From IMG/VR virus record IMGVR_UViG_3300031555_001437: a stretch of 64,000 nt of DNA. One strand, written 5' to 3'. Each line of letters begins with the position of its first letter. Within the stretch, counting starts at the first letter, position 1. Source of the stretch: a virus (taxonomy: Duplodnaviria > Caudoviricetes). A model generated the notes under the pieces. It was not told where the DNA came from. It was given only the letters and a program-made list of their open reading frames with translations, and made no database searches. This document shows positions 342 to 50,785 of the stretch, piece after piece. The position numbers were made by a program, and so were the translations under genes.

Positions 342-1889
342 CTATAGAAAATTTACTTTAATATCAATGTCGTCTCCCTTTCTTGTCCAAGTTATATATT
401 CAATGATAGTCTTATATAGTTCATTGAGTTCTGGATCTGTCAATTCTTTGTTCTTTTTCTTTTCTCTATACTCTTGGATATAATGTAGCTTTTCATGGTT
501 GGAAACAGATGATGCCTTCTTGAGTTTTAGATTTTCAATGTTAAGTTGATTCTCTAAATCATCCATCTCTTTTAATATTCTATCTTTTGCTGTTCTATAC
601 TCATCAAGTGTATCAACGCCTTCGTCGTAGGCAATACGTGCTCTTTTTAGTGCGGCATCTTTTTTATTTATTTTATCCATAATGTTTTTAATTTGGAATT
701 GGATAAGGTCTGTAGATTGGTCTTCGCATTTGTCTATCTCTGCTCTAATTTGTGCCTCGTATTCATTTAACTGTTCTTCAATTGCATCTAAAATGTATTG
801 TCCTCCACCTGCTGAGTTGCCACATTTATTTCCTAAATGATCTTGATGCCAGCAAGTTTTCACCATCAGTCTTTTGCCTCTTTTATACTCTAACGTCATG
901 CCGTACCCACATAGTCCACATCTAACTAGGTTTTTTAATGGATTTGCTTCTTTGGCTCTTCTGTTTGGACATATATTATTTTTTTGAACTTGAATTAAAA
1001 TCCTTTCGTGTTCGTCTTGCGTCTTAACTGCTTCATGCCTATTCTCAACAACAGTCCATTGGTCTTTAGGAATACGCTCCCATTTAGGCTTGTTGGGTCT
1101 GTTCTTGTGGCCATCACCTTTTGTTTTGTTGTAAATAATTTTGCCCAAATGAGTCTCGTCAACTAACATTCTTTTTATTGTAACATTGCACCATCTTGCT
1201 CCCTTTGGTGACAAAATCCCCATACCATTTAATGTCCATGCAATTTCGTTTGTACTCTTCTTTTCATTGAGGAAAGAATCAACCATAAATCTATAAATTT
1301 TTAATTTTTGTAAATTTACAACTAGTCCTTTTTCATTGTAATATCTTTTCCCTGTTTCTGGGTCAAACCATTCTTGATACTCATAAGGGAATGGAGGCGT
1401 GCCATTTGTCCATGCACCTAATTTAGCTCCAACCTTTTTACCCATAGATAGCCTTTGTGTAATTTTTTTATATTCTCTTCTTGCGAATACTGTTTGAAGG
1501 TCTACGGCAAATTCATCGTTATCATCAGATAAATTGTATAGTGAACTTGGAGTTACTATGTAAGTATGCGTTTTCTGAAACACTCTTTTAATTTCATCCC
1601 ACTCGCCAAGAGTGCCTCTTCCCAATCTATCTAAATCTACACAAACAACTGCGTCATACATATTATCAGATATGTCTTTTAATAACTGCTGCATTACTGG
1701 TCTTGCATATAAAGACTCTCCAGTTTCTATTTCTTCATACGCTACATAGACCCACCCTCTGCGATTACACAGCTCTTCCAACACGGTTTTGTGCTTGATA
1801 AGATCTTCTGTAGACTCTCCTCTAGATTTTCTTAGGTATTCTGCTACGTATTTAATAATAACCTCGTTGTATCCAACTCTCATTTCCAA
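342..1889 (-). CDS. Large serine recombinase (phage integrase)
   Basis: N-terminal resolvase motifs YLRKS and DLDRLGRG, recombinase domain, CGLCG...C zinc ribbon, C-terminal coiled coil. Confidence 0.93.
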   Translation of the reverse strand: MEMRVGYNEVIIKYVAEYLRKSRGESTEDLIKHKTVLEELCNRRGWVYVAYEEIETGESLYARPVMQQLLKDISDNMYDAVVCVDLDRLGRGTLGEWDEIKRVFQKTHTYIVTPSSLYNLSDDNDEFAVDLQTVFARREYKKITQRLSMGKKVGAKLGAWTNGTPPFPYEYQEWFDPETGKRYYNEKGLVVNLQKLKIYRFMVDSFLNEKKSTNEIAWTLNGMGILSPKGARWCNVTIKRMLVDETHLGKIIYNKTKGDGHKNRPNKPKWERIPKDQWTVVENRHEAVKTQDEHERILIQVQKNNICPNRRAKEANPLKNLVRCGLCGYGMTLEYKRGKRLMVKTCWHQDHLGNKCGNSAGGGQYILDAIEEQLNEYEAQIRAEIDKCEDQSTDLIQFQIKNIMDKINKKDAALKRARIAYDEGVDTLDEYRTAKDRILKEMDDLENQLNIENLKLKKASSVSNHEKLHYIQEYREKKKNKELTDPELNELYKTIIEYITWTRKGDDIDIKVNFL

Positions 1890-13270: not shown

Positions 13271-13273
13271 GCT

Positions 13274-13388
13274 AGTCACTTTTAGATTGGATTCGAACCA
13301 ATGTCTCCAGTTTATCCGACTGGTGTTCTACCTCTAAACTACATCTCTAATTATTTGCAGAGACAACATGATATTGCTGTAAGTGACT
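13274..13388 (-). ncRNA. Circularly permuted tRNA-like RNA closed by an ACAGCAA stem (Y-RNA-like)
   Basis: AGTCACTT-ACAGCAA...TGTCTCT/AGAGATG hairpin, D arm, CCAGT-CGGATAA-ACTGG, ATTGG-TTCGAAT-CCAAT, then AAGTGACT. Confidence 0.75.
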
Positions 13389-13392
13389 ATTA

Positions 13393-13472: not shown

Positions 13473-13548
13473 TGGTGTGCCCTGGGAGATTTGAACTCCC
13501 GACACCATGATTAAAAGTCATGTGATCTACCATCTGATCTAAGGGCAC
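13473..13548 (-). tRNA. tRNA-Lys(TTT)
   Basis: Anticodon arm CATGA-CTTTTAA-TCATG; CCA end. Confidence 0.93.
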
Positions 13549-13999: not shown

Positions 14000-14818
14000 T
14001 CAATCTTCAATTACTAATACATTTACCTTTTTGCTATACGCAGTACATGCGTCAATCGCAATAACACGTTCATCAACAAACGGCTCGAAAGATTTACTCC
14101 AATCTGCATGGGTCGGCTTCGGAAACTCTTTATACATTAGTTTCAAGTGCGACCAACCCCACGAACAGTGCCAGTGTCCACACACGATTTGCTTTGACGG
14201 CTCATACACATCGTACCGCCATGCAAGTTCCATGCCGTTAAACCATCTTGCGGTATTCCACTCAGACGCGTGAACTTCTCTCCAATTCGGATTATACTGA
14301 TACGTTCTGCCTTTACGATAGTGCGCTGGCATGTCTGTATTTGTCTCACAAGGAATGCTGCCATGGACAAACACATAATGCTCAGTCTCGTAATAATCAA
14401 TACTTGCAGGAATGAGAGTTTTGCAGAAATCAGAGTTTAAAACCTTAGAGACGAACTTATTTCGATTTCTCAGAGCCTCGGTCTCTGTCATGCCGCTAAG
14501 TTGCAGCGCACTGCTCCAAGTGCCGTTGCTGACATGATGAGAATAACCCCAGGCAATAGCATCTGCGTACTTGTCGAAACCATTAAGCATATCAAGCAAC
14601 AAATCTTCGTGATTGCCACGTATGAAAATTAGCTCGTCGCGGTTATACAAGTCCATCATGAAGTCTTGCATCTCCACAGACTCTAGACCCCTGTCAAGAG
14701 CATCGCCACAAATGATTAACTTCTTGGGGTCAGAGTCCGTGAAAAAGCCTTTATCGTCAAGAGCTTGTTTGAACTCACTGTAAAAGGAATGTACGTCTGA
14801 CGTTACATAATATTTCAT
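14000..14818 (-). CDS. Calcineurin-like metallophosphoesterase
   Basis: SDVH, GDALDRG, RGNHED, FVHG and GHWH motifs. Confidence 0.9.
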   Translation of the reverse strand: MKYYVTSDVHSFYSEFKQALDDKGFFTDSDPKKLIICGDALDRGLESVEMQDFMMDLYNRDELIFIRGNHEDLLLDMLNGFDKYADAIAWGYSHHVSNGTWSSALQLSGMTETEALRNRNKFVSKVLNSDFCKTLIPASIDYYETEHYVFVHGSIPCETNTDMPAHYRKGRTYQYNPNWREVHASEWNTARWFNGMELAWRYDVYEPSKQIVCGHWHCSWGWSHLKLMYKEFPKPTHADWSKSFEPFVDERVIAIDACTAYSKKVNVLVIED

Positions 14819-16350
14819 CTAATTGCCTCTTCTACTGCTCTATATCTTTCCGAATTCAGTTGCTCGAGCAAACACTCATACGGGTCAAGTTTACCCGACA
14901 TAACCATCTTCGCAACGTTTACAGAGAAACCACTGACAAGGGCTACTCCCAAATCATTCTGCTTAACAGGAATTGCGCCAGTTCTAGAATTAACATTCCA
15001 GAACACGAGCCTTGGGAGTTGATATCCATGTGCTGCGTATTTTTGAGCGATAGCGTCAAAGAGAGTGGCGGTCGGGCGAGAGCCTCTGCTGGAGTACCAA
15101 CTGGAAGACGTAGCTGGACCCATCGTTGCACATGAATCGAACTCCATGTCCGAAATGACCAGCACATTCGCAGGCATATCCCTCTGAGACATGTTGTTGT
15201 TAATAGCAGTCTGCAAAATCAAATCGAACGTTGCTTCGATATTAGTGTTTGCAACCTCGTTATGTCTACGTGCGATGGCAATCTTCTCTCTCAGAGTAGA
15301 AGCGCCGCTAAAATCAACCAGCTGAGGTCTGCTGCTAAAAGTAATGTACTTATCCTTGAACTCGCCAGAAGATCTCTCTGCGAAGTAAATTGCAAGTGCG
15401 TTAGCAACCTCAAGAGCAGTTACACCAGTGTTGCCGCCAACAGTACACTGCATACTACCTGAACCATCTGCAACTACGATTGTATTACCGCAACCCTGTA
15501 CAGTGTCTGGAAGAGCCTTCCACATAGCCTCGATACCTTTGTCTACACTGCGGCTATAAGCGTAAGAATGAACTAAGTCATGAGGAAACAGAACACTTGC
15601 ATTGATCTTTGCCTCGCCCTTTTCAAGCGCACCAAGATATGCTCTGCGTCTATCCTCGTCGTTGCGTAAGAACGCACCGTTGTAAATCAAGTTTGCACGG
15701 CTAGGAACGGCCTCATAGTCAATATCTCCCCACTGCTTTGCAGACATCTTTCGCTCTACAACATCAATGTAGTTGCGCATCTTAGACAGCATCTTACGAT
15801 ACTCCTTAGAAGACATACCAAGACCGTTGCGAATAATTTTTGCAAGACGCTTGGTTTCTGCGGAAGACGCGTTTTCGGACGGAGCCCATTTGCTACAGAG
15901 GGAAATTGACTCCTTGTTCTTCATCGCTTGCTTGTCTGCTGCAAGCTGTTCACGAATATGGACAATAATATCATCTTTAAGGCTAGTATCAAGCAGACAC
16001 CACAGGTCATCGTATCTGCCATACTCACTTACAAGTCTAATAACTGCCTTGATAATCTCTGGCTTCTCAGTAGCCAGATGCTTCATAACAATTCTGAACA
16101 GGCGTCTCTCGCCAATTCCCTGTCTTGCATCGCGGCAATAGAACAGCCACTTGATTGCGGTTACCTTGTCCTCATAATAAGCATCCATAAACTTGTTGAT
16201 GATTTGCTGCTCAGAAGCGCCTCTTAGAGAGGCCACAGCGAAATTCAAATCGAGCAACTTCTTACCAGTAGTTCGCCACGCTACCGCGCCGTTCTCTGTC
16301 AAAACCTTTTCATTGTTAAGTTCGTTTTTGATTGCGTTCATGAAACTCAT
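14815..16350 (-). CDS. DUF2828-family Ro60/TROVE-like helical protein with C-terminal vWA domain
   Basis: TENGA, RDAR.G.GERR.FR, EYGRYDDL, KWAPS, VPS.A, DGSGSM MIDAS motif, TFS, SDMEFD, FWNV, LVSGFS; RBS before MSFMNA. Confidence 0.85.
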   Translation of the reverse strand: MSFMNAIKNELNNEKVLTENGAVAWRTTGKKLLDLNFAVASLRGASEQQIINKFMDAYYEDKVTAIKWLFYCRDARQGIGERRLFRIVMKHLATEKPEIIKAVIRLVSEYGRYDDLWCLLDTSLKDDIIVHIREQLAADKQAMKNKESISLCSKWAPSENASSAETKRLAKIIRNGLGMSSKEYRKMLSKMRNYIDVVERKMSAKQWGDIDYEAVPSRANLIYNGAFLRNDEDRRRAYLGALEKGEAKINASVLFPHDLVHSYAYSRSVDKGIEAMWKALPDTVQGCGNTIVVADGSGSMQCTVGGNTGVTALEVANALAIYFAERSSGEFKDKYITFSSRPQLVDFSGASTLREKIAIARRHNEVANTNIEATFDLILQTAINNNMSQRDMPANVLVISDMEFDSCATMGPATSSSWYSSRGSRPTATLFDAIAQKYAAHGYQLPRLVFWNVNSRTGAIPVKQNDLGVALVSGFSVNVAKMVMSGKLDPYECLLEQLNSERYRAVEEAIR

Positions 16351-16388
16351 TTTGTTTTCCTCCAAAATTTCATTTATAATAACAATCC

Positions 16389-16744
16389 AAGACACATTAG
16401 GTTATATAGATTAAAAGTCTATTCCATTAAGATTGCTGTATGTGTCTTAAGATATAGTTGACATGCGAGACACCATAATGATATGCATACACGACATTTA
16501 CTGTCATGCAATTTTAAGCATGCCATTCGTCTTCAATATAGAGTGAACGGCAAGTTCCATTTACTATTATTTTCATCATTAAAATTGCTGTCGGTGTCTC
16601 TTTATCGAGATGCTATTAAACTATAAAATCATCATTCTTTAATTTCTTAGTAAATAACATTGCTGTTAGCATCTCTTTTTTAAACAAGGCACAATATAAT
16701 TTCATTCCCAGCAGAAATATGTATTAAGTTGCTGTGTGTGCCTT
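16389..16744 (-). repeat. Array of four stem-ACAGCAA-variable loop-stem small RNA units
   Basis: Units 16389-16448, 16467-16600, 16607-16675 and 16686-16744; each has an 8-9 bp covarying closing stem with ACAGCAA just 3' of the 5' strand. Confidence 0.8.
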
Positions 16745-16749
16745 TAAAG

Positions 16750-16876
16750 TGGTACGCGGACGATGAATCGAACATCGAACATTTAGTCCCCATCTTTCTG
16801 TGAAAATTGCGGTTAAGGTTTATGTCTAAACCCATTCACAATACTACTAACGCTCTACCAGTTGAGCTATCCGCGC
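16750..16876 (-). ncRNA. tRNA-like RNA with a ~58-nt module replacing the anticodon loop
   Basis: GCGCGGA/TCCGCGT-ACCA acceptor, canonical D and T arms, TTAGT/ACTAA stem enclosing GGTTTA-GACA-TAAACC-TTAACCGCAA. Confidence 0.78.
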
Positions 16877-16884
16877 ATATTAAG

Positions 16885-17002
16885 TGGGGGCTGCAAGACT
16901 CGAACTTGCGACCTCGGAGTTACCAGCTCAAATGTAAAATTGCAGTTTAAGATTTTGTCAAACCTCAATTATACGCGCTCTATCCAACTGAGCTAAGCCC
17001 CC
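16885..17002 (-). ncRNA. tRNA-like RNA (GGT anticodon) with a 44-nt insertion in the anticodon stem
   Basis: GGGGGCT/AGCCCCC acceptor; CG[insert]GAG-CTGGTAA-CTCCG; insert GAGGTTT-GACA-AAATCTT-AAACTGCAA; no encoded CCA. Confidence 0.78.
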
Positions 17003-17044: not shown

Positions 17045-17073
17045 ATTATAACATAATTTACTTAATTTGTCAA
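17045..17073 (-). promoter_or_regulatory. Sigma-A promoter driving the small-RNA / DUF2828 / tRNA island
   Basis: TTGACA-17bp-TATAAT with extended -10 TG; repeat variant ACACGACAGAATGA just downstream. Confidence 0.82.
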
Positions 17074-17781: not shown

Positions 17782-18750
17782 TTACTTAGACAGAATGTCG
17801 GTAGGAATAACCACGCTGCCATCGCCAGAGACCATAGGCAGATCACCGCTCCACTGCTCAATGAGAAGCTTATTGATAAGCTCATCAGTAAGAGACTCTG
17901 CAATCTTCTGGTTTGCCTCCGCCTCAGCCTCAGCTGCAATACGAACCTTCTCTGCGTCTGCCTCTGCTGCAATCAGCACCTTCTCTGCCTCAATTGCTGC
18001 AACTTCCTTGTCTCTGTTCGCGTTGGTAAGAGCGACTTCCTTATCCTTCTCTGCATTCATGAGTGCTACATTCTTGTCCTTCTCCGCCTGGATCAGTGCA
18101 GTCTTAGCCTCAATCTCAGCCAGCTCCAGCTCCTGCTGAGCTGTTACCTTCTTCTGAATTGCCTCTGCAGTTTCATCATCAACGGAGATGTTAGTAAAGT
18201 TAACGGTGTCGATGATAATGCCGTAAGGCTCGAACTTCTCTCTCAAATAAACATCAAGCTCTGCGTTGATCTGCGTTCTCTTGTCACCAAAGATATCAGT
18301 TACAGGATAGTTTGCTGAAATCTCCTGTGTCCAAGCAATAATCTTAGGCTTGATGAACGTATCCTTAATCTCCTCACCAGAACGACCCTTGAATGCTACG
18401 AAGGTATCAGTTACTCTGGCTGCATCAAACTTGTAAGAAAACTCAAGGTCAACACGGACAGTCTTACCATCTGCGGTAGGAATGTTAAAGCTTTCGTCCT
18501 TCTTAGAGTCGCCCTTACTTGCTTCAGTTAGATACGACTGCTCGATACCGATAGAATATGCCGTAACCTTCTTAGTAGGAGCAACGAAGTGCCAGCCCTG
18601 CGTAAGAACCTCACCATCAACGCCACCACTCATGTTGTAAACAACACCGACATAACCAGCGTCAACCTTTGTCAAGCACGAAAGGCAGACAATCAGACCG
18701 ATAAAAATGATTGCGCCAAGAATAATTGCACCAATATAACCCTTTTTCAT
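17782..18750 (-). CDS. SPFH/Band-7 (prohibitin) family membrane protein
   Basis: N-terminal TM helix, VDAGYVGVV, GWHFV.P, and an AE-rich coiled coil. Confidence 0.9.
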   Translation of the reverse strand: MKKGYIGAIILGAIIFIGLIVCLSCLTKVDAGYVGVVYNMSGGVDGEVLTQGWHFVAPTKKVTAYSIGIEQSYLTEASKGDSKKDESFNIPTADGKTVRVDLEFSYKFDAARVTDTFVAFKGRSGEEIKDTFIKPKIIAWTQEISANYPVTDIFGDKRTQINAELDVYLREKFEPYGIIIDTVNFTNISVDDETAEAIQKKVTAQQELELAEIEAKTALIQAEKDKNVALMNAEKDKEVALTNANRDKEVAAIEAEKVLIAAEADAEKVRIAAEAEAEANQKIAESLTDELINKLLIEQWSGDLPMVSGDGSVVIPTDILSK

Positions 18751-29663: not shown

Positions 29664-31004
29664 TTATCCCATTTTTGCTGCCGCTTGTAATAAAACATTG
29701 TGTTCATTTTGGATTTCTCCATCAATTACCATCTGCAATAACGTGCTCAATGTATGCCCTAATTTTTTCCCAGTTTCATATCCGATACTAATTAAATCAT
29801 TACCGTTAATCGCTAAATCTTTAGCGGAAAAACACTCGCCCTCTTGAAGCACATCTTCAAGTAGTTGCTCAATCACATCTACTTTTTCAATTCTTTCTGC
29901 ACCGTATTCTTTCTTTTGCCCTTTGATATCTGCTCTACGTACATTCAAAAGTCTTCTAAATTGTTCTTCTCCAATTTTATTGAGCCATCTTTTAATGTAC
30001 TTACGTCCGACTTCAAATGTGGCATCGTGATAATGAACCAATCCTGCTACGTCGTGTCGAGTTTTATTATCAAATCTCAGGCCTAGCATGATAGCGTCGG
30101 CTATCTCAGCACTTACTCTACCATGTCCTTTAAAATGCCTTGTCCCATCCTCGTCGTCTTGGTAACAATGCGGCTTTCCAAAGTCATGGAACAAAATAGC
30201 AAGTCGAGTTGTTAAGTCGCAAGACTCGTCATAACTTAATGCTTTTGCAGTATGGGTGAACACATCATAATCATGATACGGGTTGTTCTGCTGAAAATCT
30301 ACGATGTCACACATTTCGGGTATAATTTGGCAAAACACTCCGACATATAAACGTAGAACAAACGGGAATCTGTTGCATATTACCATTTTACACAACTCAC
30401 TATTGACGCGCTCTTTCGAAATATTCTTTAATAACTGTGCGTTTGAAATAATTGCGTACTTCGTGTGTTCCTCTATTTCAAAGTCCATCTGACAAGAAAA
30501 TCTCAGCGCCCGCAATACTCTCAATGCGTCTTCTTGAAATCTATCATTTGCATTTCCAACGCATCGAATTTTCATATCTTTGATATCATCTAAGCCACCA
30601 AACGGGTCTATTAATCCCTCTTCATCATTGTAGGCAATAGCGTTAATAGTGAAGTCTCGTCTACTTAAGTCTTCTTCCAGGTTTGAAGTAAACGTTACTG
30701 TATCTGGTCGACGATTGTCAGAATAATCTCCGTCAATTCGAAATGTGGTTACTTCGTAAGACTCATCACCAACAACTACAGTTAGAGTGCCGTGCTGCAA
30801 TCCAGTTTCAATTATTCTTTTATCATTAAAAATATTCAGCATCTCGCTCGGAGTGGCGGACGTGCAAATATCCCAGTCATTAGGAGTTCGACCAAGAATA
30901 CTATCTCTTACACATCCTCCAACTATATATGCAGCGTGTCCATGGCTTTGTAACATATGAATTAAATCATTTGCATGGTTTGGAATGTTAATATTAAATT
31001 TCAC
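29664..31004 (-). CDS. cca: CCA-adding enzyme / tRNA nucleotidyltransferase with HD domain
   Basis: VGGCVRD, DWDICT, RRDFTINA, EDALRVLRA, HT...LFHDFGK. Confidence 0.93.
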   Translation of the reverse strand: MKFNINIPNHANDLIHMLQSHGHAAYIVGGCVRDSILGRTPNDWDICTSATPSEMLNIFNDKRIIETGLQHGTLTVVVGDESYEVTTFRIDGDYSDNRRPDTVTFTSNLEEDLSRRDFTINAIAYNDEEGLIDPFGGLDDIKDMKIRCVGNANDRFQEDALRVLRALRFSCQMDFEIEEHTKYAIISNAQLLKNISKERVNSELCKMVICNRFPFVLRLYVGVFCQIIPEMCDIVDFQQNNPYHDYDVFTHTAKALSYDESCDLTTRLAILFHDFGKPHCYQDDEDGTRHFKGHGRVSAEIADAIMLGLRFDNKTRHDVAGLVHYHDATFEVGRKYIKRWLNKIGEEQFRRLLNVRRADIKGQKKEYGAERIEKVDVIEQLLEDVLQEGECFSAKDLAINGNDLISIGYETGKKLGHTLSTLLQMVIDGEIQNEHNVLLQAAAKMG

Positions 31005-32022
31005 CCTTTACCACCCTTTCATTTACGCTTGCAACAAACTCATTGATTGCTTTATAATTAGGCCCATCTGGAAGATTTGTATTTTTCTTTGCGTATTCAA
31101 GTCGCTTTTCACATTCATCAACCATTTCATAAAACTCTGCAATTGGCTGCCTATTATCGTCAAGATATTTACCGTTACGAATATCCATCAATAAGTCATG
31201 ATCTGCATCTCGATATGTAATAATTTGCTCTTTTTCAAGGATATCAAAACACATCATGTAAAGACGTATGAGGTGCATCATGTGCTTACCCAATTTATCA
31301 TGACTGATTGCTTTTTCGTTTCTGCTACCAATTTTGCCATACGACTTGACTATTTGCTGCATTTCAGCCCACATACCAGCATAATCCCTCAAAGGATAAT
31401 GGTTCAAATGCGCGTCCATAAAGATCTCGGTATCATATCCGTCTTGCACCGCCTTATCAATATATAATTTGATAGCATCATCTGGCATAGTTAAGTATCT
31501 GTCTTTGAACACATACTGGGCGTTTTCAATTGTTTTATAAATATGCTCTTCGTTTTGTGCTTGACCAACGAGTCGATTTGATTTGTTTTCAAGCCTTCTA
31601 AGCTGCTGATTAGCATATCCGCCAAAAGAATGAACTGCTCTCTTAGAAAGGAACAGATGTGCGTTGTCAAGAAGTTCGCGCCCAACAGGAGATATATAAA
31701 GATAGTGCTCTGGTTTATTGCCGAGCATCTCAATTGTGTTTGGATTGACATTGCTCAGCAGAGAGACCAACTTGTTAAAAGCATAAATAGTGGTGTCTGT
31801 TTCTTCGTTGACAAACTGCTCAAAATTCTCGTTAGTCAAAATCTGCATCTTACTATTCAGAGCACACCCACGAATATCCAAGTCACTATTCTCGTTGTTT
31901 GTTCCATAAGCGTGACTACCGCCAAGAGTTAAAAGAATGATATTCCGTCCAAGATTTGCATCAGTTTTTAAAAACCCATATTCATCCGAATTTACTTTCT
32001 GTCTAATCTGCTCAATGTTCAT
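30994..32022 (-). CDS. RlaP-like Pol-beta superfamily nucleotidyltransferase
   Basis: GGSHAYGT...SDLDIRG, NPN.IE.L, F.GYA..QL, K..MHL.RL and IRNG. Confidence 0.82.
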   Translation of the reverse strand: MNIEQIRQKVNSDEYGFLKTDANLGRNIILLTLGGSHAYGTNNENSDLDIRGCALNSKMQILTNENFEQFVNEETDTTIYAFNKLVSLLSNVNPNTIEMLGNKPEHYLYISPVGRELLDNAHLFLSKRAVHSFGGYANQQLRRLENKSNRLVGQAQNEEHIYKTIENAQYVFKDRYLTMPDDAIKLYIDKAVQDGYDTEIFMDAHLNHYPLRDYAGMWAEMQQIVKSYGKIGSRNEKAISHDKLGKHMMHLIRLYMMCFDILEKEQIITYRDADHDLLMDIRNGKYLDDNRQPIAEFYEMVDECEKRLEYAKKNTNLPDGPNYKAINEFVASVNERVVKGEI

Positions 32023-40300: not shown

Positions 40301-41251
40301 TCATAAATACCTCCTAAATTTGTCAAGAACAGTTGATGCTGAATGTTCTCCCATAAATCCAAACCTATAACAAACTCTTCTACCGCTGTCTGTGTTTAGA
40401 TACTCGCGCAAGTCATCTATTCCCTTCTCTTGCATCTTTTTGTGCAATTCGTGCCACAGACCACTTGCGTTGATGCTCTTTGGCGTCATTTTAATGCCGA
40501 GATATTCGCTTATAATTGTAACTCTTCTGTGGAGCCATCTCATGCGGCGTCGGCGATCGTCTGCGTTATTGATATTGTCGTTTTCATTGATAGTATTGCC
40601 GCGAATTTTATAAATGCCGCCAGTAGAAACCACGATGACTGTGCTCTCATCATTATAAGATATCAGAGCATCCTCTTCAAATGCCTTCCTCACTATCTCG
40701 TAATCCCTATCAGACAACACGATCATCTTGCCAGTCCTGAAATATATCTTATTTTCCTTTGTGCTTAATTGGTCTGAGGTTAAAAATGTAATTTCTTTGA
40801 GGTTTTCGCCTCCCACTCCCATAAACAACAAACTCAATATTGCTTTATCTGTGTAGTTCAATAAATCATCCTGCATAGTTTGCAGCTGCTCTTTGGTTAT
40901 CAACATTTGCTTTACAGCATCTGCGTCCACGCATCGATTGAGGTCATCTCTTGTAACAGCTTCATATGCGTTATCCAGAGATTTGCCTTGCGTATGCAAA
41001 AACCAGCGTGATGCGTGCTTTAATGTTAAGTTCCAATTTTGCAGTGTGCGGTTTGATTTTACTTTTGCGTCAGTGTACATTTGTAATATCTCTTCTTTTG
41101 TGAACTCATAGAACACTTTCCCAAATCTTTTCTCGTTACCAAGTGCTCTATTGAGAACTGCGTTTACCATAGTTGTCGAAACCACTCTACTTCTAAAATA
41201 CTCTTTTAAAAACTCCTCTTTTTGAGATTCCAATGTATACACATAACTCAC
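40301..41251 (-). CDS. MrpR/YopR-like lysogeny repressor (degenerate tyrosine-recombinase fold)
   Basis: E.RFGK...EFT.EEI, LLN.TDKAIL.LLF.G..G..L.EI..L and T.KSI..SG; recombinase catalytic residues not evident. Confidence 0.7.
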   Translation of the reverse strand: MSYVYTLESQKEEFLKEYFRSRVVSTTMVNAVLNRALGNEKRFGKVFYEFTKEEILQMYTDAKVKSNRTLQNWNLTLKHASRWFLHTQGKSLDNAYEAVTRDDLNRCVDADAVKQMLITKEQLQTMQDDLLNYTDKAILSLLFMGVGGENLKEITFLTSDQLSTKENKIYFRTGKMIVLSDRDYEIVRKAFEEDALISYNDESTVIVVSTGGIYKIRGNTINENDNINNADDRRRRMRWLHRRVTIISEYLGIKMTPKSINASGLWHELHKKMQEKGIDDLREYLNTDSGRRVCYRFGFMGEHSASTVLDKFRRYL

Positions 41252-41314: not shown

Positions 41315-42304
41315 TTAAACTAAACCATCAAGTACGTTCAAGACTTTCTCTTCGTCTTCTTTGAATACGTCAATATATCTCATTGTGATAGAAATGTTTG
41401 AATGCCCCAACTGCTTTGCGATTGCCTTAACTGGGAGCCCCGCCTTTGCCAATTGGCATGCTGCGCTTGATCTTAGCTTGTGGAAAGTGATGTGCTTTCC
41501 GAGGCCAATTTCATCACAGTACTTTGCGAGCATTTCATTAAGAGCATCTGGAGAAATTCGGTTCTTCTGTCTTGATAAGAATAATGCGTTTGACGCAACG
41601 TTACCATATTCCTTGTTTCTAACCTGTATCCAATATTGCAGCATTTTCTTAACGTTGGCCCCGATTGCAATACTACGAACCTTTTGACGTTTCTCAATAA
41701 CATTGATTATGCCGTTGTCAAAGTCAATGTCCTGAATGTTTAGATTAATCATGGCAGAAATTCTAAGTCCAGTTGCAAGAGCGAGACTGATGATTGTCTT
41801 GTCTCTTAATCCCATAACTTTATTTGGGTTATTGTCTGTCGCTTTCAGTAATTTATTGATTTCTACCTTTGTCAAAAACGTTACTTGATGTTCTGTGTTG
41901 TTCTTTGGTCTGCTTACTCCAGCAATAGGATTTTCATCTATATATTTTCTAGTTAACAAGAAATTGAAGAAATGATTGAGTGAACTCCATCTTTGCTGTA
42001 AAACATCGTCGCCCATTCTTTTAGTTCCAGATGATGTCTTTTTGGTTTCAAGTGAGATAAAATATCTTTCAATGTCAGTAACTGCAATTGCTTTATAGAA
42101 ATCATTCTTCATATTGTCGCCACATGCAAAATTTACAAAGTGCAAAAGATTGTTAATATACACGTTGATGCTTGTATACGCCTTTCTGTTTGCTCTTAAC
42201 GAAATATAATATTCGTTGATTACTGGAGGCAAATTCTTTAGCTTTGCATCCATCTTTTCATAGAATTGTGTTTCTTTTTCCAAACGACCAGTTAAAGTAC
42301 TCAT
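41315..42304 (-). CDS. Tyrosine recombinase (XerC/D-like)
   Basis: RD...LALATGLRISA, HKLRSS and LGHSNISITMRY: catalytic R-H-R-H-Y intact. Confidence 0.92.
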   Translation of the reverse strand: MSTLTGRLEKETQFYEKMDAKLKNLPPVINEYYISLRANRKAYTSINVYINNLLHFVNFACGDNMKNDFYKAIAVTDIERYFISLETKKTSSGTKRMGDDVLQQRWSSLNHFFNFLLTRKYIDENPIAGVSRPKNNTEHQVTFLTKVEINKLLKATDNNPNKVMGLRDKTIISLALATGLRISAMINLNIQDIDFDNGIINVIEKRQKVRSIAIGANVKKMLQYWIQVRNKEYGNVASNALFLSRQKNRISPDALNEMLAKYCDEIGLGKHITFHKLRSSAACQLAKAGLPVKAIAKQLGHSNISITMRYIDVFKEDEEKVLNVLDGLV

Positions 42305-49344: not shown

Positions 49345-50508
49345 TTACGCGTTTGCTTTGAAGTTAAAAATTGGAATAAGTCTATCAAGTATATCCACCG
49401 TGGGCTCTATGCATTCCATGATTTCAAGATAATCCTTGTATACAAACGGAGCCTCGTCAAGAGTGCTTGCGTTGATACAAGAGCTGAAAATTCCTTCCAT
49501 CTGTTTTGCGTATTCGTCTACGGTGAACAACTCTTTTGCCTCAGAACGAGAGTATAATCTTCCTGCTCCATGAGGTGCGGAATAATTCCAGTCTGGATTC
49601 CCTTTGCCGCGACATAAAAGAAGCCCGTCACGCATATTGAGTGGAATGACGAGCAACTGGTCTTTCTGAGCAGAAATTGCACCTTTTCTCAGGTACATAT
49701 TCTCAGTGTCTATATAGTTGTGAATTGAGTTGATATGTTCAAGCACACGACCTCCCATGTGCTTCGTGATTGCTTTGAGCATTGCCATGCGATTGTCGTT
49801 TGCAAAACGCTGCATAACTGCAACATCATGCAAATAGTCAGCCATGTCAGCGCCAGTCAAATAGCACAAATCTTTTTGGATGTGGAATTTGTGTTCCTTG
49901 AGCCACTGCTCTCGTTGAGTTGGCTCAATAGTCTTGATTTGCTCCATAAGAAAAATATGATTGTGCTCTTTTACTCTTTGCTCCGCGAGTTGCTGATAGT
50001 ATGCGGCGACTTTAAATCCGATGTTGCGGCTTCCGCTATGAACAGACAGCCACCCATCTTCGTACGCCTCGATGAAGTGATTACCGCCTCCAAGAGTTCC
50101 TAACGCAGTCATTGCTCGCGTCTTCGAATCCTTGTCGAGATATCCCCAGCAACGAAGCTCCTCAAAATTCCACGGTTGAAATTCTGAGTGCGTGTCCATT
50201 CCAAACGGAATATACTTTCTGATAACTGCATCCAATTTATCAAGGCGGTTCTTGAAATCAATATCGGTCTTGACAAGGTCAACGCCACATCCAATATCTA
50301 CGCCTACCAAGTTCGGGCATACCTTATCGGTGATTTTCATCGTCGTGCCAATTACACAACCTGCACCAGCGTGGCAGTCTGGCATGATACGAATATGTGC
50401 ATTTTCACCAAGGACAGAATTTGCCATCTCGATGATTTGCGCGATTGCTTCTTGCTCAACGGTTTTTGCATACACATATATGTCGCCGTATTTAGTGTTA
50501 TAAACCAT
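49345..50508 (-). CDS. rtcB: RtcB RNA 3'-phosphate/5'-OH ligase
   Basis: MPDCHAG, VGVDIGCG, LGTLGGGNHFIE, HSGSR, HNY, RKGA, SAPHGAGR and DEAP..YK. Confidence 0.95.
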   Translation of the reverse strand: MVYNTKYGDIYVYAKTVEQEAIAQIIEMANSVLGENAHIRIMPDCHAGAGCVIGTTMKITDKVCPNLVGVDIGCGVDLVKTDIDFKNRLDKLDAVIRKYIPFGMDTHSEFQPWNFEELRCWGYLDKDSKTRAMTALGTLGGGNHFIEAYEDGWLSVHSGSRNIGFKVAAYYQQLAEQRVKEHNHIFLMEQIKTIEPTQREQWLKEHKFHIQKDLCYLTGADMADYLHDVAVMQRFANDNRMAMLKAITKHMGGRVLEHINSIHNYIDTENMYLRKGAISAQKDQLLVIPLNMRDGLLLCRGKGNPDWNYSAPHGAGRLYSRSEAKELFTVDEYAKQMEGIFSSCINASTLDEAPFVYKDYLEIMECIEPTVDILDRLIPIFNFKANA

Positions 50509-50509
50509 T

Positions 50510-50785
50510 TTAAACCACCTTTCTTGCGTTACAATGATAATCAATTTCTTGCAATTTAAGTTGTATCTTTTCGATAATTGGCATTGCCTCTTTGGGGATT
50601 TTGTGATTTTTGTTATAATAAACAATTTCGTCTGCCATAATATCAAAAACATTGTCACCAAAATCACCCTTTGTCCAGATATAAACCGAGTACGACTTGA
50701 TTTTATCAATGTCATAATACGGATCTATCTCATGTGCAACTGCAACAAGTTCATCGTACAATTTCAAATATTTATCTTTATCCAT
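50510..50785 (-). CDS. Hypothetical protein
   Basis: ORF in the packed operon. Confidence 0.5.
   Translation of the reverse strand: MDKDKYLKLYDELVAVAHEIDPYYDIDKIKSYSVYIWTKGDFGDNVFDIMADEIVYYNKNHKIPKEAMPIIEKIQLKLQEIDYHCNARKVV

What the first reader, a model, noticed from the sequence alone, without database searches (positions are those of the whole stretch)
16389..16448. Mini-RNA displaying an isolated tRNA-Lys(UUU) anticodon stem-loop just upstream of the DUF2828 start
The cargo of the last ACAGCAA unit contains ATAGA-CTTTTAA-TCTAT (16406-16422), a perfect 5-bp stem with the same 7-nt loop as the phage tRNA-Lys at 13473. tRNA-Lys(UUU) is the known target of the anticodon nuclease PrrC. Inference: this is an anticodon-nuclease decoy or sensor. 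Its position about 25 nt upstream of the RBS would also allow autoregulation or cleavage-coupled control of the DUF2828/phosphoesterase operon. The unit at 16686-16744 has a weaker anticodon-like loop (CTGGGAA).
Basis: partly seen in the sequence, partly recalled or inferred. Interest (0 to 1): 0.75.

Follow-up and report, generated by a model that had tools for sequence, protein, structure and literature searches.

The report
Anticodon-arm mimic on Y-like RNA
A 60-base phage RNA just upstream of a Ro60-like protein gene displays a faithful copy of the tRNA-Lys anticodon arm on a conserved "handle". The same design, with many different anticodons, recurs in hundreds of related phages, so it is a real tRNA-mimicking module, possibly bait for host tRNA-cutting defences.

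Summary
On the minus strand, 16389-16448 folds into a 9-bp closing stem, then ACAGCAA, then the hairpin AUAGA-CUUUUAA-UCUAU. That hairpin shares 11 bases with the phage's own tRNA-Lys anticodon arm.

The unit is the last of six co-transcribed "handle" RNAs upstream of a DUF2828/DUF7788 protein. The predicted fold of that protein matches only Ro60/TROVE rings.

The hairpin is not chance:
- In homologous arrays, 5-bp/CUNNNAA hairpins occur in 16 of 81 independent cargos, against 0.14 expected.
- Both stems covary.
- C32, A37 and A38 are nearly fixed, while positions 34-36 vary freely. UUU (Lys) is the commonest anticodon.
- A covariance model built from such units finds 105 more next to distant DUF2828 genes, 102 of them on the gene strand.

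Best reading: a Y-RNA-like RNA is held by the Ro60-like protein through its handle and presents an anticodon arm to anticodon-recognising proteins. Bait or decoy for host anticodon nucleases is the most likely use (about 0.35), but it is untested.

The "weaker" loop of the 16686-16744 unit is not an anticodon arm. The phosphoesterase coupling is found only in this phage's nearest relatives. The position next to the ribosome-binding site is not specific to this class.

Earlier notes of this scan report the protein-plus-handle system in at least 82 other genomes.

The parts
17045..17073 (-). Consensus sigma-70-type promoter TTGACA-17-TATAAT with a TG extension. It is the only strong promoter upstream of the RNA array and the gene.
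   Evidence: 12 of 12 hexamer matches. No terminator-like site lies between it and the DUF2828 start.
16885..17002 (-). E7: a tRNA-like gene with a 34-44 nt insert in the anticodon arm. The insert holds a loop-closed handle helix followed by ACUGCAA.
   Evidence: Rfam tRNA 45.7 bits. Aragorn calls it only with the intron option. Sequence read.
16753..16876 (-). E6: a second tRNA-like gene with a 49-nt insert holding a loop-closed handle helix followed by ACCGCAA. CCA is encoded.
   Evidence: Rfam tRNA 47.9 bits; aragorn with the intron option.
16686..16744 (-). E5: a 59-nt handle RNA. Its cargo loop CUGCUGGGAAUG belongs to a different recurring cargo class and is not an anticodon arm.
   Evidence: Fold. 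Model R1 scores 38.2 bits, E 1.1e-6. Related cargos appear in L015, L019, L024 and L050.
16607..16675 (-). E4: a 69-nt handle RNA with an AU-rich cargo.
   Evidence: R1 scores 32.8 bits, E 1.9e-5.
16467..16600 (-). E3: a 134-nt handle RNA with a large structured cargo.
   Evidence: minimum free energy -37.6 kcal/mol, z = -3.66. Closing stem GAGACACCG/UGGUGUCUC.
16389..16448 (-). E2, the finding: a 60-nt handle RNA, the last unit before the gene. With two flanking G.U pairs it spans 16387-16450.
   Evidence: R1 scores 76.5 bits, E 1.3e-15 (E2 is one of the 28 training rows). Positional orthologues exist in L012, L013, L202, L282, L283, L284, L002, L004 and others.
16440..16448 (-). 5' arm of the handle helix (AAGACACAU).
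   Evidence: It pairs with 16389-16397. The seven core pairs covary in 28 units, six of them with compensatory changes, and the G-C pair at the third position is invariant. In L282 (protein 97% identical) the arm reads AAGACGCUU with matching changes in the 3' arm.
16433..16439 (-). ACAGCAA, the invariant single-stranded motif directly 3' of the 5' arm.
   Evidence: Invariant in all 28 aligned units. Present in 94 of 105 independent model hits.
16406..16422 (-). Anticodon stem-loop mimic AUAGA-CUUUUAA-UCUAU (Lys, UUU). It sits on a short extension helix UGG/CC(U), with A on the 5' side and AUAA on the 3' side of the junction.
   Evidence: The stem is paired in 95.7% of cells and 4 of 5 pairs show compensatory changes. 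The 17-mer is identical in L012, L013, L202, L282 and L284, whose proteins are 71-97% identical.
16389..16397 (-). 3' arm of the handle helix (AUGUGUCUU), followed by the conserved G.
16359..16363 (-). GGAGG ribosome-binding site of the DUF2828 gene, 25 nt after the end of E2.
   Evidence: Read.
14818..16350 (-). Ro60-like protein of 511 aa (DUF2828 + DUF7788/vWA) with an invariant DGSGSM (DxSxS) metal-site motif. It is the presumed protein partner of the handle RNAs.
   Evidence: Pfam DUF7788 3.1e-45 and DUF2828 1.1e-33. AlphaFold2 model pLDDT 69.6. The Foldseek hits through rank 13 are all Ro60/TROVE, E 2.9e-9 to 1e-4, full length. Invariant residues.
14003..14818 (-). Calcineurin-like metallophosphoesterase of 272 aa. 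Its start overlaps the DUF2828 stop (ATGA). Seen beside the gene only in the 97%-identical relative.
   Evidence: Pfam Metallophos 3.8e-14. Nearest solved structures are lambda phosphatase 1g5b (1.6e-5) and 4j6o. Present in L282 and absent from 171 other related loci.
13473..13548 (-). Phage tRNA-Lys(UUU), whose anticodon arm (13506-13522) E2 imitates.
13273..13389 (-). E1: a seventh handle RNA in the downstream tRNA cluster. Its cargo holds D-, anticodon- and T-arm-like hairpins.
   Evidence: 9-bp closing stem; ACAGCAA at 13374-13380. Rfam partial tRNA hit at 13285-13342, 44.8 bits.

Best explanation
E2 is a small Y-RNA-like RNA.

Its handle is a covarying 7-9 bp helix formed by its two ends, plus the single-stranded ACAGCAA. 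The handle is the part shared by all units of the array. It is most likely the binding site for the Ro60-like DUF2828 ring protein encoded immediately downstream (inferred, about 0.75).

Its cargo is a faithful, selected copy of a tRNA anticodon arm, here Lys(UUU). The structure is shown by comparative evidence (about 0.9).

The particle therefore presents a free anticodon arm to proteins that read anticodon arms. I think the most likely use is as bait or decoy for host anticodon-directed nucleases that deplete tRNA during infection. The closing helix and the protein ring would keep a cut arm together and shield its ends (inferred, untested).

The anticodon triplet is the exchangeable specificity element. 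Related phages keep the frame C32-U33-NNN-A37-A38 and the stem, but swap the triplet.
For: **Anatomy**
- One strong promoter is followed by six units, then the gene, with no terminator between them.

**Protein**
- The Foldseek hits through rank 13 are all Ro60/TROVE, over the full length. They include a Thermus phage Ro60.

**Handle family**
- The array recurs upstream of DUF2828 genes at 56-97% identity.
- Model R1 finds 105 hits in 80 independent loci at 35-71% identity. Of these, 102 lie on the gene strand, 101 have 7 of 7 stem pairs, and 94 carry ACAGCAA.
- 13 of 14 phage records found by the DNA pattern alone encode the protein elsewhere on the contig.

**Anticodon-arm class**
- 16 of 81 cluster representatives carry it, against 0.14 expected; the maximum in 500 shuffles was 2.
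- Stem covariation score is 0.579 against 0.203 in shuffles, with 0 of 500 shuffles reaching it.
- Loop entropy in bits at positions 32-38 is 0.17, 0.94, 1.28, 1.89, 1.57, 0.34 and 0.47. Between units with identical stems, 47 of 50 differences lie at positions 33-36.
- In L282 (protein 97% identical) the handle carries compensatory changes while the 17-mer arm is unchanged.
- UUU accounts for 30% of the displayed anticodons, but for only 11 of the 400-odd tRNA genes called in the same loci.

**Context**
- This phage also encodes RtcB, an RlaP nucleotidyltransferase, a CCA-adding enzyme and an SPFH protein.

**Literature**
- PrrC reads cues in the anticodon stem-loop (PMC1484252).
- Isolated anticodon stem-loops are cleaved by an activated Cas13 (PMC13692257).
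- Cleavage of tRNA is a recurrent anti-phage strategy, and phages answer it with their own tRNAs (PMC10264068, PMC11555353).
- Bacterial and phage Y RNAs mimic tRNA (PMC4201824).
Against: - No binding, cleavage or expression data exist.
- At least 14 anticodons are displayed, so no single nuclease explains the class.
- Known anticodon nucleases also read base modifications. Whether a mini-arm acquires them is unknown.
- The RNA-repair context is not general. RtcB is absent from 10 of 10 other phage records that carry the protein and the handle. The phosphoesterase is absent from 171 related loci.
- The displayed anticodon does not track the tRNA genes held in the same locus: 6 matches against 7 expected.
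- The Y-RNA precedent is tethering, not decoying.
- The rows of alignment A2 were picked by requiring both stems, and R1 was trained on CUNNNAA loops. The pairing and loop-frame figures therefore lean towards the model.
- Co-occurrence of handle and protein may partly reflect shared ancestry.
- The structure model has only moderate confidence (pLDDT 69.6).
Confidence: 0.35

Rival explanations
1. Adaptor rather than decoy. As in the Ro60/Y-RNA particles, the variable module tethers the ring protein to another enzyme. Here the anticodon arm would recruit a tRNA-modifying, tRNA-repair or quality-control enzyme to the particle, or the particle to damaged tRNA. It would not soak up a nuclease.
For: [quoted passage not shown]
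- Sister units carry T arms, D arms or whole permuted tRNA bodies, as YrlA does. The cargo repertoire is therefore 'tRNA parts' in general.
- Nearly all displayed loops have A37 after U36 or A36, which is the context of t6A and i6A modification. This is partly a consequence of the search pattern.
- RtcB, RlaP and a CCA-adding enzyme are present in this phage.
Against: - The hypervariable triplet inside a fixed frame suggests anticodon-specific partners. That fits nucleases or synthetases better than general modification enzymes.
- Phage RtcB is absent from 10 of 10 other records.
- No partner enzyme is conserved next to the gene apart from an SPFH protein, seen in 46 of 171 loci.
Confidence: 0.25
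2. Cis-acting leader. E2 acts mainly as part of the 5' untranslated region. The DUF2828 protein binds the handle in its own mRNA and represses translation, or cleavage of the arm changes mRNA stability. Either would couple expression to protein level or to tRNA damage.
For: - E2 ends 25 nt before the ribosome-binding site, and no promoter or terminator lies between them.
- A unit ends within 90 nt of the start codon in 73 of 117 distinct loci.
- In several lineages the last unit carries an extra outer helix (L002, L037).
Against: - The position is not specific to the anticodon-arm class: 20 of 73 last units against 28 of 164 others.
- The same class occurs at the far end of arrays and downstream of the gene.
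- Some genes have no upstream unit at all (L008, L050).
- This reading would explain the handle but not the conserved anticodon-loop frame.
Confidence: 0.1
3. Decaying tRNA remnant. The cargo is a leftover of the tRNA gene from which the unit arose, and only the handle is functional.
For: Units clearly derive from tRNA genes, and several hold larger tRNA fragments.
Against: - The 17-mer is identical across phages whose proteins are 71-97% identical, while the spacers and even the handle change.
- 4 of 5 stem pairs show compensatory changes.
- C32, A37 and A38 are nearly invariant.
- Enrichment over shuffles is more than 100-fold.
Confidence: 0.04

Closest known systems
Ro60 (Rsr) with Y RNAs, especially bacterial and phage YrlA (Rfam RF02553; Chen et al. 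2014, PMC4201824) and D. radiodurans Yrn1
   Same: - Small RNAs are encoded beside a ring-shaped TROVE + vWA protein.
- Their 5' and 3' ends form the helix thought to bind the protein.
- The variable part mimics tRNA.
- Yrn1 has even been modelled with a 5-bp 'anticodon arm'.
- Some sister units here have the YrlA layout of T arm, acceptor-like hairpin and D arm (L138, L116, L260).
   Different: - The protein is DUF2828/DUF7788. It has no Pfam TROVE hit and no sequence match to any solved structure.
- The handle (helix + ACAGCAA) is unlike the bulged Y-RNA helix.
- Rfam YrlA does not detect any unit. Its only hits are 22-28 bit artefacts across tandem tRNAs.
- The units come in arrays of up to six or more.
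- E2 shows only an isolated anticodon arm, with a canonical 7-nt loop. No described Y RNA does so.
Phage tRNAs and tRNA variants that evade tRNA-cleaving defences (PMC10264068, PMC11555353)
   Same: Both are phage-encoded RNA answers centred on the anticodon arm. Here the tRNA cluster lies in the same transcription unit, and tRNA-Lys(UUU) itself is encoded 2.9 kb downstream.
   Different: Those are complete, chargeable tRNAs that replace the cut ones. E2 has no acceptor, D or T arm. It cannot be charged, and it carries a protein-binding handle.
Class I RNAs of dictyostelid amoebae (Rfam RF01414; PMC7919456)
   Same: The described architecture is the same: 42-65 nt, a short stem joining the 5' and 3' ends, a conserved motif directly after the 5' arm of the stem, and a variable remainder.
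   Different: - RF01414 gives no hit on 16370-16760 even at E <= 10.
- I could not verify the sequence of their 11-nt motif, because the original paper is not held.
- Their known partner is an RRM protein.
- This link is a lead from earlier notes of the scan. It is not established here.
RNA-based anti-defence decoys such as phage RNA anti-CRISPRs (solitary repeat mimics; from my own knowledge, not checked here)
   Same: Both are small phage RNAs that copy the element a host defence protein recognises.
   Different: No defence protein has been shown to bind E2. E2 is tied to a dedicated Ro60-like protein.

Membership tests
tRNA anticodon stem-loop (as a structural mimic) | 5-bp stem closing a 7-nt loop | tested here: met
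   AUAGA-CUUUUAA-UCUAU in the minimum-energy fold. The stem is paired in 95.7% of cells and 4 of 5 pairs are compensatory across 28 units.
tRNA anticodon stem-loop (as a structural mimic) | Loop frame of pyrimidine 32, U33, purine 37 and A38, with a variable triplet at 34-36 | tested here: met
   E2 has C32, U33, UUU, A37 and A38. In 40 independent hairpins the entropy is 0.17, 0.94, 0.34 and 0.47 bits at positions 32, 33, 37 and 38, against 1.28-1.89 bits at 34-36.
tRNA anticodon stem-loop (as a structural mimic) | tRNA-type base modifications (such as t6A37 or a modified U34) | not testable with these tools
   This needs RNA mass spectrometry or modification-sensitive sequencing.
tRNA gene | Acceptor, D and T arms (cloverleaf) | tested here: not met
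   Neither aragorn nor Rfam tRNA calls anything at 16389-16448. The 60 nt hold only the handle, a short extension helix and the arm.
DUF2828-linked ACAGCAA handle RNAs (the family defined in this scan) | Covarying 7-9 bp helix formed by the two ends, followed directly by ACAGCAA | tested here: met
   Model R1 scores E2 at 76.5 bits (E2 is one of its 28 training rows).
DUF2828-linked ACAGCAA handle RNAs (the family defined in this scan) | Encoded beside a DUF2828 gene and on the same strand | tested here: met
   E2 ends 38 nt before the start codon. In 80 independent loci, 102 of 105 model hits lie on the gene strand.
Y RNA (Rfam Y_RNA / YrlA) | Match to the family covariance model | tested here: not met
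   There is no hit on E2. The only YrlA hit in the window is 22.2 bits (gathering score 69), across the E7/E6 junction. There is none on handle units in seven other loci.
Y RNA (Rfam Y_RNA / YrlA) | Terminal helix that is the Ro60 binding site; physical association with a Ro60 protein | not testable with these tools
   A terminal helix is present and conserved. Binding needs immunoprecipitation or a gel-shift assay.
Ro60 / TROVE proteins (for the neighbouring gene) | HEAT-repeat ring followed by a vWA domain with a metal-site motif | tested here: met
   The Foldseek hits through rank 13 are all Ro60/TROVE, over 507-591 columns, with TM 0.41-0.52. DGSGSM is invariant in 14 homologues. The model confidence is only moderate.
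Ro60 / TROVE proteins (for the neighbouring gene) | Sequence match to Pfam TROVE or to solved Ro60 structures | tested here: not met
   Pfam gives only DUF2828, DUF7788 and a weak VWA_2 hit. phmmer against PDB sequences finds nothing at E <= 1.
Dictyostelid Class I RNA (RF01414) | Match to the family covariance model | tested here: not met
   No hit at E <= 10 on 16370-16760.
Anticodon-nuclease decoy | Copies the recognition element of the nuclease's substrate | tested here: met
   E2 shares 11 bases with the tRNA-Lys arm. PrrC's cues lie in the anticodon stem-loop (PMC1484252).
Anticodon-nuclease decoy | Is bound or cut by such a nuclease and protects the phage | not testable with these tools
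   This needs cleavage and competition assays and phage genetics. The host and its defences are unknown.

The most novel reading that the evidence does not exclude
Phages carry a programmable ribonucleoprotein sponge. A Ro60-like ring holds small RNAs by a common handle, and each RNA displays one tRNA part. The anticodon-arm units are renewable baits whose triplet is retuned over short evolutionary distances (Lys, Ser, Asn, Ile, Gln, Gly and others). This would match whichever anticodon-specific nuclease the local hosts deploy. It would be a new class of RNA-based counter-defence, and the first assigned role for the DUF2828 family, which also occurs in archaeal viruses, giant viruses and eukaryotes.
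Probability: 0.3. Interest if true: 0.85.

Novelty: new variant of a known kind. Interest (0 to 1): 0.7.

Why it matters
Cleavage of tRNA anticodon loops is one of the commonest ways bacteria abort phage infection. The known phage answers are repair enzymes and replacement tRNAs.

A dedicated particle that displays bare anticodon arms would be a third answer. It would make the question directly testable, because the RNA is 60 nt long, the protein is one gene, and the specificity element is three bases.

Independently of the decoy idea, three results follow from this work:
- The DUF2828 family gains an RNA partner.
- The Ro60/Y-RNA principle extends to a second protein family with a different handle.
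- tRNA mimicry by such RNAs turns out to be modular, with single arms as well as whole bodies.

No Rfam family detects these RNAs, so current annotation misses them.

Tried and rejected
- **blastn against INPHARED phages.** The locus gave no match.
- **phmmer of the protein against PDB sequences.** No match. Only the fold search was informative.
- **Literature on DUF2828.** Only incidental mentions.
- **Burroughs & Aravind 2016 paper on RNA repair.** My searches did not find it (two searches were malformed). What I say about it rests on memory and on PMC7824862.
- **Rfam.**
  - The YrlA hits are artefacts of tandem tRNAs.
  - Class I RNA RF01414 gives no hit.
  - The Class I motif sequence could not be verified.
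- **RNAalifold on alignment A2.** It predicts only the handle helix, because the AU-rich arm is too weak energetically. The arm rests on pair counts.
- **Chance hairpin.** Rejected.
- **Obligatory link to RtcB-type repair.** Rejected. RtcB is absent from 10 of 10 other records.
- **Conserved DUF2828-phosphoesterase operon.** Rejected.
- **Displayed anticodon matches a tRNA gene in the same locus.** Not seen, 6 against 7 expected. Only 3-4 kb flanks were available.
- **Intended negative control for co-occurrence.** I used pattern matches without an exact closing GTGTCTT. It failed as a control: 4 of 5 such records also encode the protein, so they are probably real units with imperfect closure.
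- **Strict minimum-stem finder.** It has a sizeable background, 113 hits on the opposite strand against 283 on the gene strand. Counts from it are diluted, not inflated.
Full report
**Observation**

All features lie on the minus strand. Positions 16448-16389 read:
- AAGACACAU (5' arm)
- ACAGCAA
- UCUUAAUGGA
- AUAGA-CUUUUAA-UCUAU (the hairpin)
- AUAACCUA
- AUGUGUCUU (3' arm)

RNAfold pairs the two ends (9 bp) and forms the 5-bp/7-nt hairpin in the minimum-energy structure. The phage tRNA-Lys(UUU) at 13473-13548 has CAUGA-CUUUUAA-UCAUG, so the two share GACUUUUAAUC. These are the only two perfect 5-bp + CTTTTAA hairpins on either strand of the window, against 0.12 expected in shuffles. The unit ends 25 nt before the GGAGG ribosome-binding site of the next gene.

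**Setting**

A perfect TTGACA-17-TATAAT promoter (17073-17045) is the only strong promoter. No terminator-like site follows it before the gene. After the promoter come, in order:
1. Two tRNA-like genes whose anticodon arms carry inserts (E7, E6).
2. Four units closed by a terminal helix with ACAGCAA directly after the 5' arm (E5, E4, E3, E2).
3. A 511-aa DUF2828 + DUF7788 protein.
4. An overlapping metallophosphoesterase gene.
5. A tRNA cluster holding a seventh unit, E1.

E2 is thus the last member of a co-transcribed RNA array.

**The protein**

Sequence searches against solved structures find nothing. An AlphaFold2 model built on 14 homologues has pLDDT 69.6. In the Foldseek search, the hits through rank 13 are all Ro60/TROVE, over the full length. 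They include the TROVE domain 9kop, the Thermus phage phiLo Ro60, Deinococcus Rsr, and Xenopus and human Ro60, with E from 2.9e-9 to 1e-4. Lower hits match only the vWA half. The motif DGSGSM (DxSxS) is invariant. By fold, then, this is a Ro60-like ring. By sequence it is not a Pfam TROVE member.

**The RNA family**

The same arrays lie upstream of DUF2828 genes in 91 IMG/VR loci whose proteins are 56-74% identical. They also lie upstream in three closer relatives at 76-97% identity.

I aligned 28 units (A2):
- The seven core pairs of the handle helix are always paired.
- Six of the seven pairs show compensatory changes.
- One G-C pair is invariant.
- ACAGCAA is invariant.

A covariance model built from these rows (R1) was run on 80 loci from bacterial and archaeal assemblies that played no part in building it. 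Their DUF2828 proteins are 35-71% identical to the window's. The results:
- 105 hits at E <= 0.01.
- 102 of them on the gene strand, mostly just before or just after the gene.
- 101 with 7 of 7 stem pairs.
- 94 with ACAGCAA.

In the window, R1 hits only E2, E5 and E4.

A scan of all viral contigs for AAGACACNNACAGCAA found units in phages chosen without reference to the protein. Of 14 such records searched whole, 13 encode a DUF2828 homologue at E <= 1e-116. No Rfam family detects the units. Earlier notes of this scan report the same protein-plus-handle pairing in at least 82 other genomes. My tests agree with them.

**The anticodon-arm class**

I chose units by their handle only and compared them with dinucleotide shuffles of each cargo.

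| Set | Loop on a 5-bp stem | Observed | Expected |
|---|---|---|---|
| 145 distinct mini-units | CUNNNAA | 33 | 0.28 (maximum 4 in 500 shuffles) |
| 145 distinct mini-units | YUNNNRA | 37 | 1.9 |
| 81 cluster representatives | CUNNNAA | 16 | 0.14 |
| 81 cluster representatives | YUNNNRA | 18 | 0.96 |

The arm's stem is paired in 95.7% of cells, and 4 of 5 pairs have compensatory changes. The pair next to the loop is always A-U. For the CUUUUAA loop alone the stems include AUAGA, UUAGA, UAAGA, UUUGA, AUCAA, UUCAA, ACAAA and AUAAA.

In the independent set, 49 of 105 model hits have a hairpin at this site, 32 of them with CUNNNAA. Loop positions 32, 37 and 38 are nearly invariant (0.17, 0.34 and 0.47 bits). 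Positions 34-36 are the most variable (1.28-1.89 bits). Among units with identical stems, 47 of 50 differences lie at positions 33-36.

Orthologues of E2 itself show this pattern:
- WIN, L012, L013, L202, L282 and L284 keep the identical 17-mer, while the spacers and even the handle change. L282, whose protein is 97% identical, has three compensated pair changes in the handle.
- L283 has CAGUUAA on the same stem.
- L063 has CUGUUAA.
- The L004 group has CUUGUAA or CUAUUAA.

The displayed triplets among 53 distinct units are UUU 16, UGA 11, GUU 6, GCU 4, GAU 3, UCC 3 and eight others. By contrast, tRNA-Lys(UUU) accounts for only 11 of the 400-odd tRNA genes called in the same loci. A further class with UUUGGGU loops looks like Pro(UGG) arms.

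Caveats:
- The A2 rows were selected by requiring both stems.
- R1 was trained on CUNNNAA loops.
- Related phages are not independent samples.
- The shuffle test and the independent loci are the least circular parts of the evidence.

- The loop CTGGGAA in the 16686-16744 unit needs a mismatch to form the proposed hairpin. It belongs to another recurring cargo motif.
- The phosphoesterase gene follows the DUF2828 gene in the 97%-identical relative but has no homologue in any of 171 other related loci. There is therefore no conserved 'DUF2828/phosphoesterase operon'.
- A unit commonly ends within 90 nt of the start codon (73 of 117 loci). That unit is of the anticodon-arm type in only 20 of the 73, against 28 of 164 elsewhere in the arrays. 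Arm-type units also lie first in arrays and downstream of the gene.

**How it most likely works**

Shown:
- E2 is a member of a large, structurally conserved RNA family that is tied in position and strand to a Ro60-like protein gene.
- Its cargo is a selected mimic of an anticodon arm with an exchangeable triplet.

Inferred:
- The protein binds the handle, as Ro60 binds the terminal helix of Y RNAs (PMC4201824).
- The arm is offered to a protein that reads anticodon arms.

I favour bait or decoy for host anticodon-directed nucleases (about 0.35), for these reasons:
- The fixed frame with a variable triplet points to anticodon-specific partners.
- Lys(UUU) is over-represented. tRNA-Lys is the PrrC substrate (PMC1484252), and the PARIS effector AriB is another tRNA-cleaving defence (PMC13692257).
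- Isolated anticodon stem-loops can be substrates of such enzymes (PMC1484252, PMC13692257).
- Phages are known to fight tRNA cleavage (PMC10264068, PMC11555353).
- This phage also carries RtcB, RlaP, a CCA-adding enzyme and an SPFH protein.

Against this reading:
- There is no direct test.
- Many anticodons are displayed.
- The modification state of the arm is unknown.
- RtcB is absent from 10 of 10 other records.

The main rival is the classical Y-RNA role as a tether to a tRNA enzyme (about 0.25). A cis-regulatory leader role (about 0.1) could coexist with either.

**Comparison and novelty**

The nearest known system is Ro60 with Y RNAs, particularly the tRNA-like YrlA. Some sister units here even have the YrlA layout of T arm, acceptor-like hairpin and D arm. 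The differences are:
- the protein family
- the handle
- the array organisation
- the display of single tRNA arms

For E2 specifically, no described Y RNA displays a bare canonical anticodon arm as it does. I therefore class it as a new variant of a known kind.

The likeness to dictyostelid Class I RNAs (PMC7919456) is architectural only in my hands. RF01414 does not hit, and I could not check their motif.

Noticed in passing
window 49348-50715, 30997-32022, 29667-31004 (all minus strand): The phage encodes an RtcB RNA ligase (Pfam 4.5e-57), an RlaP 'RNA repair pathway' nucleotidyltransferase and a CCA-adding enzyme with an HD domain. Together they form an RNA-repair toolkit that lies away from the DUF2828 locus. 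RtcB is absent from 10 other phages that carry DUF2828 and the handle.
   Followed up: partly
window 17785-18750 (minus strand); L001-L091 and L202-L281: An SPFH/Band-7 gene lies just upstream of the array. Homologues sit within 3-4 kb on the same strand in 46 of 171 related loci (32 upstream, 14 downstream). It is the most recurrent protein neighbour of DUF2828.
   Followed up: partly
window 16686-16744; L015, L019, L024, L025, L050: E5 carries a loop motif, CUGCU(U)G(U)GGRAAUG, that recurs in handle units of other phages. It is a distinct cargo class of unknown meaning.
   Followed up: partly
L014, L017, L022, L074, L001 (units listed): Handle units with 5-bp stems and UUUGGGU/C loops look like tRNA-Pro(UGG) anticodon arms (U32, G37). 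My CUNNNAA pattern missed them, so the anticodon-arm class is larger than counted.
   Followed up: no
L138:5118-5235 (same unit in L098), L116:6795-6910, L173:5209-5323, L260:1953-2071: Some handle units enclose a circularly permuted tRNA body (T arm, acceptor-like hairpin, D arm). This is the YrlA layout, yet Rfam YrlA does not detect them.
   Followed up: partly
L123:4082-4706, L138:2771-3374, L098:1-552, L116:1447-1903, L123:3098-3399: Phages with the handle RNAs also carry ROOL RNAs (254-341 bits), a GOLLD-like RNA (103 bits, below the gathering score), a tmRNA and very large tRNA arrays.
   Followed up: no
L173:1222-1302: Sub-threshold match to the type-P1 twister ribozyme (41.6 bits against a gathering score of 67.2, E 8e-6) inside a phage tRNA array.
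   Followed up: no
G004, G006, G008, G011, G013 (DUF2828 matches): Several DUF2828 homologues are read through one in-frame TAA (and a TGA as well in G006). These may reflect gene-start overhang, recoding or an alternative genetic code in those phages.
   Followed up: no
L002:3885-3975, L037:2885-2975 (last unit before the gene): In several lineages the last unit has an extra 7-bp outer helix (for example AAAUCUC ... GAGAUUU), separated from the handle helix by a CA bulge. It may be a processing site or an extended protein-binding site.
   Followed up: no
L283:1400-1463: This E2 orthologue has the same stem as E2 but the loop CAGUUAA. The otherwise conserved U33 is replaced by A, and the triplet has switched from UUU to GUU.
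   Followed up: partly
window 345-1889, 40304-41251, 41318-42304 (minus strand): A large serine recombinase and two tyrosine recombinase/integrase genes suggest a temperate or plasmid-like lifestyle for this large phage.
   Followed up: no
L250-L252 (Methanobrevibacter assemblies), L277 (Pacearchaeota assembly): Handle units with ACAGCAA lie directly upstream of DUF2828 genes on contigs binned with archaea. The system is therefore not confined to phages of bacteria.
   Followed up: partly
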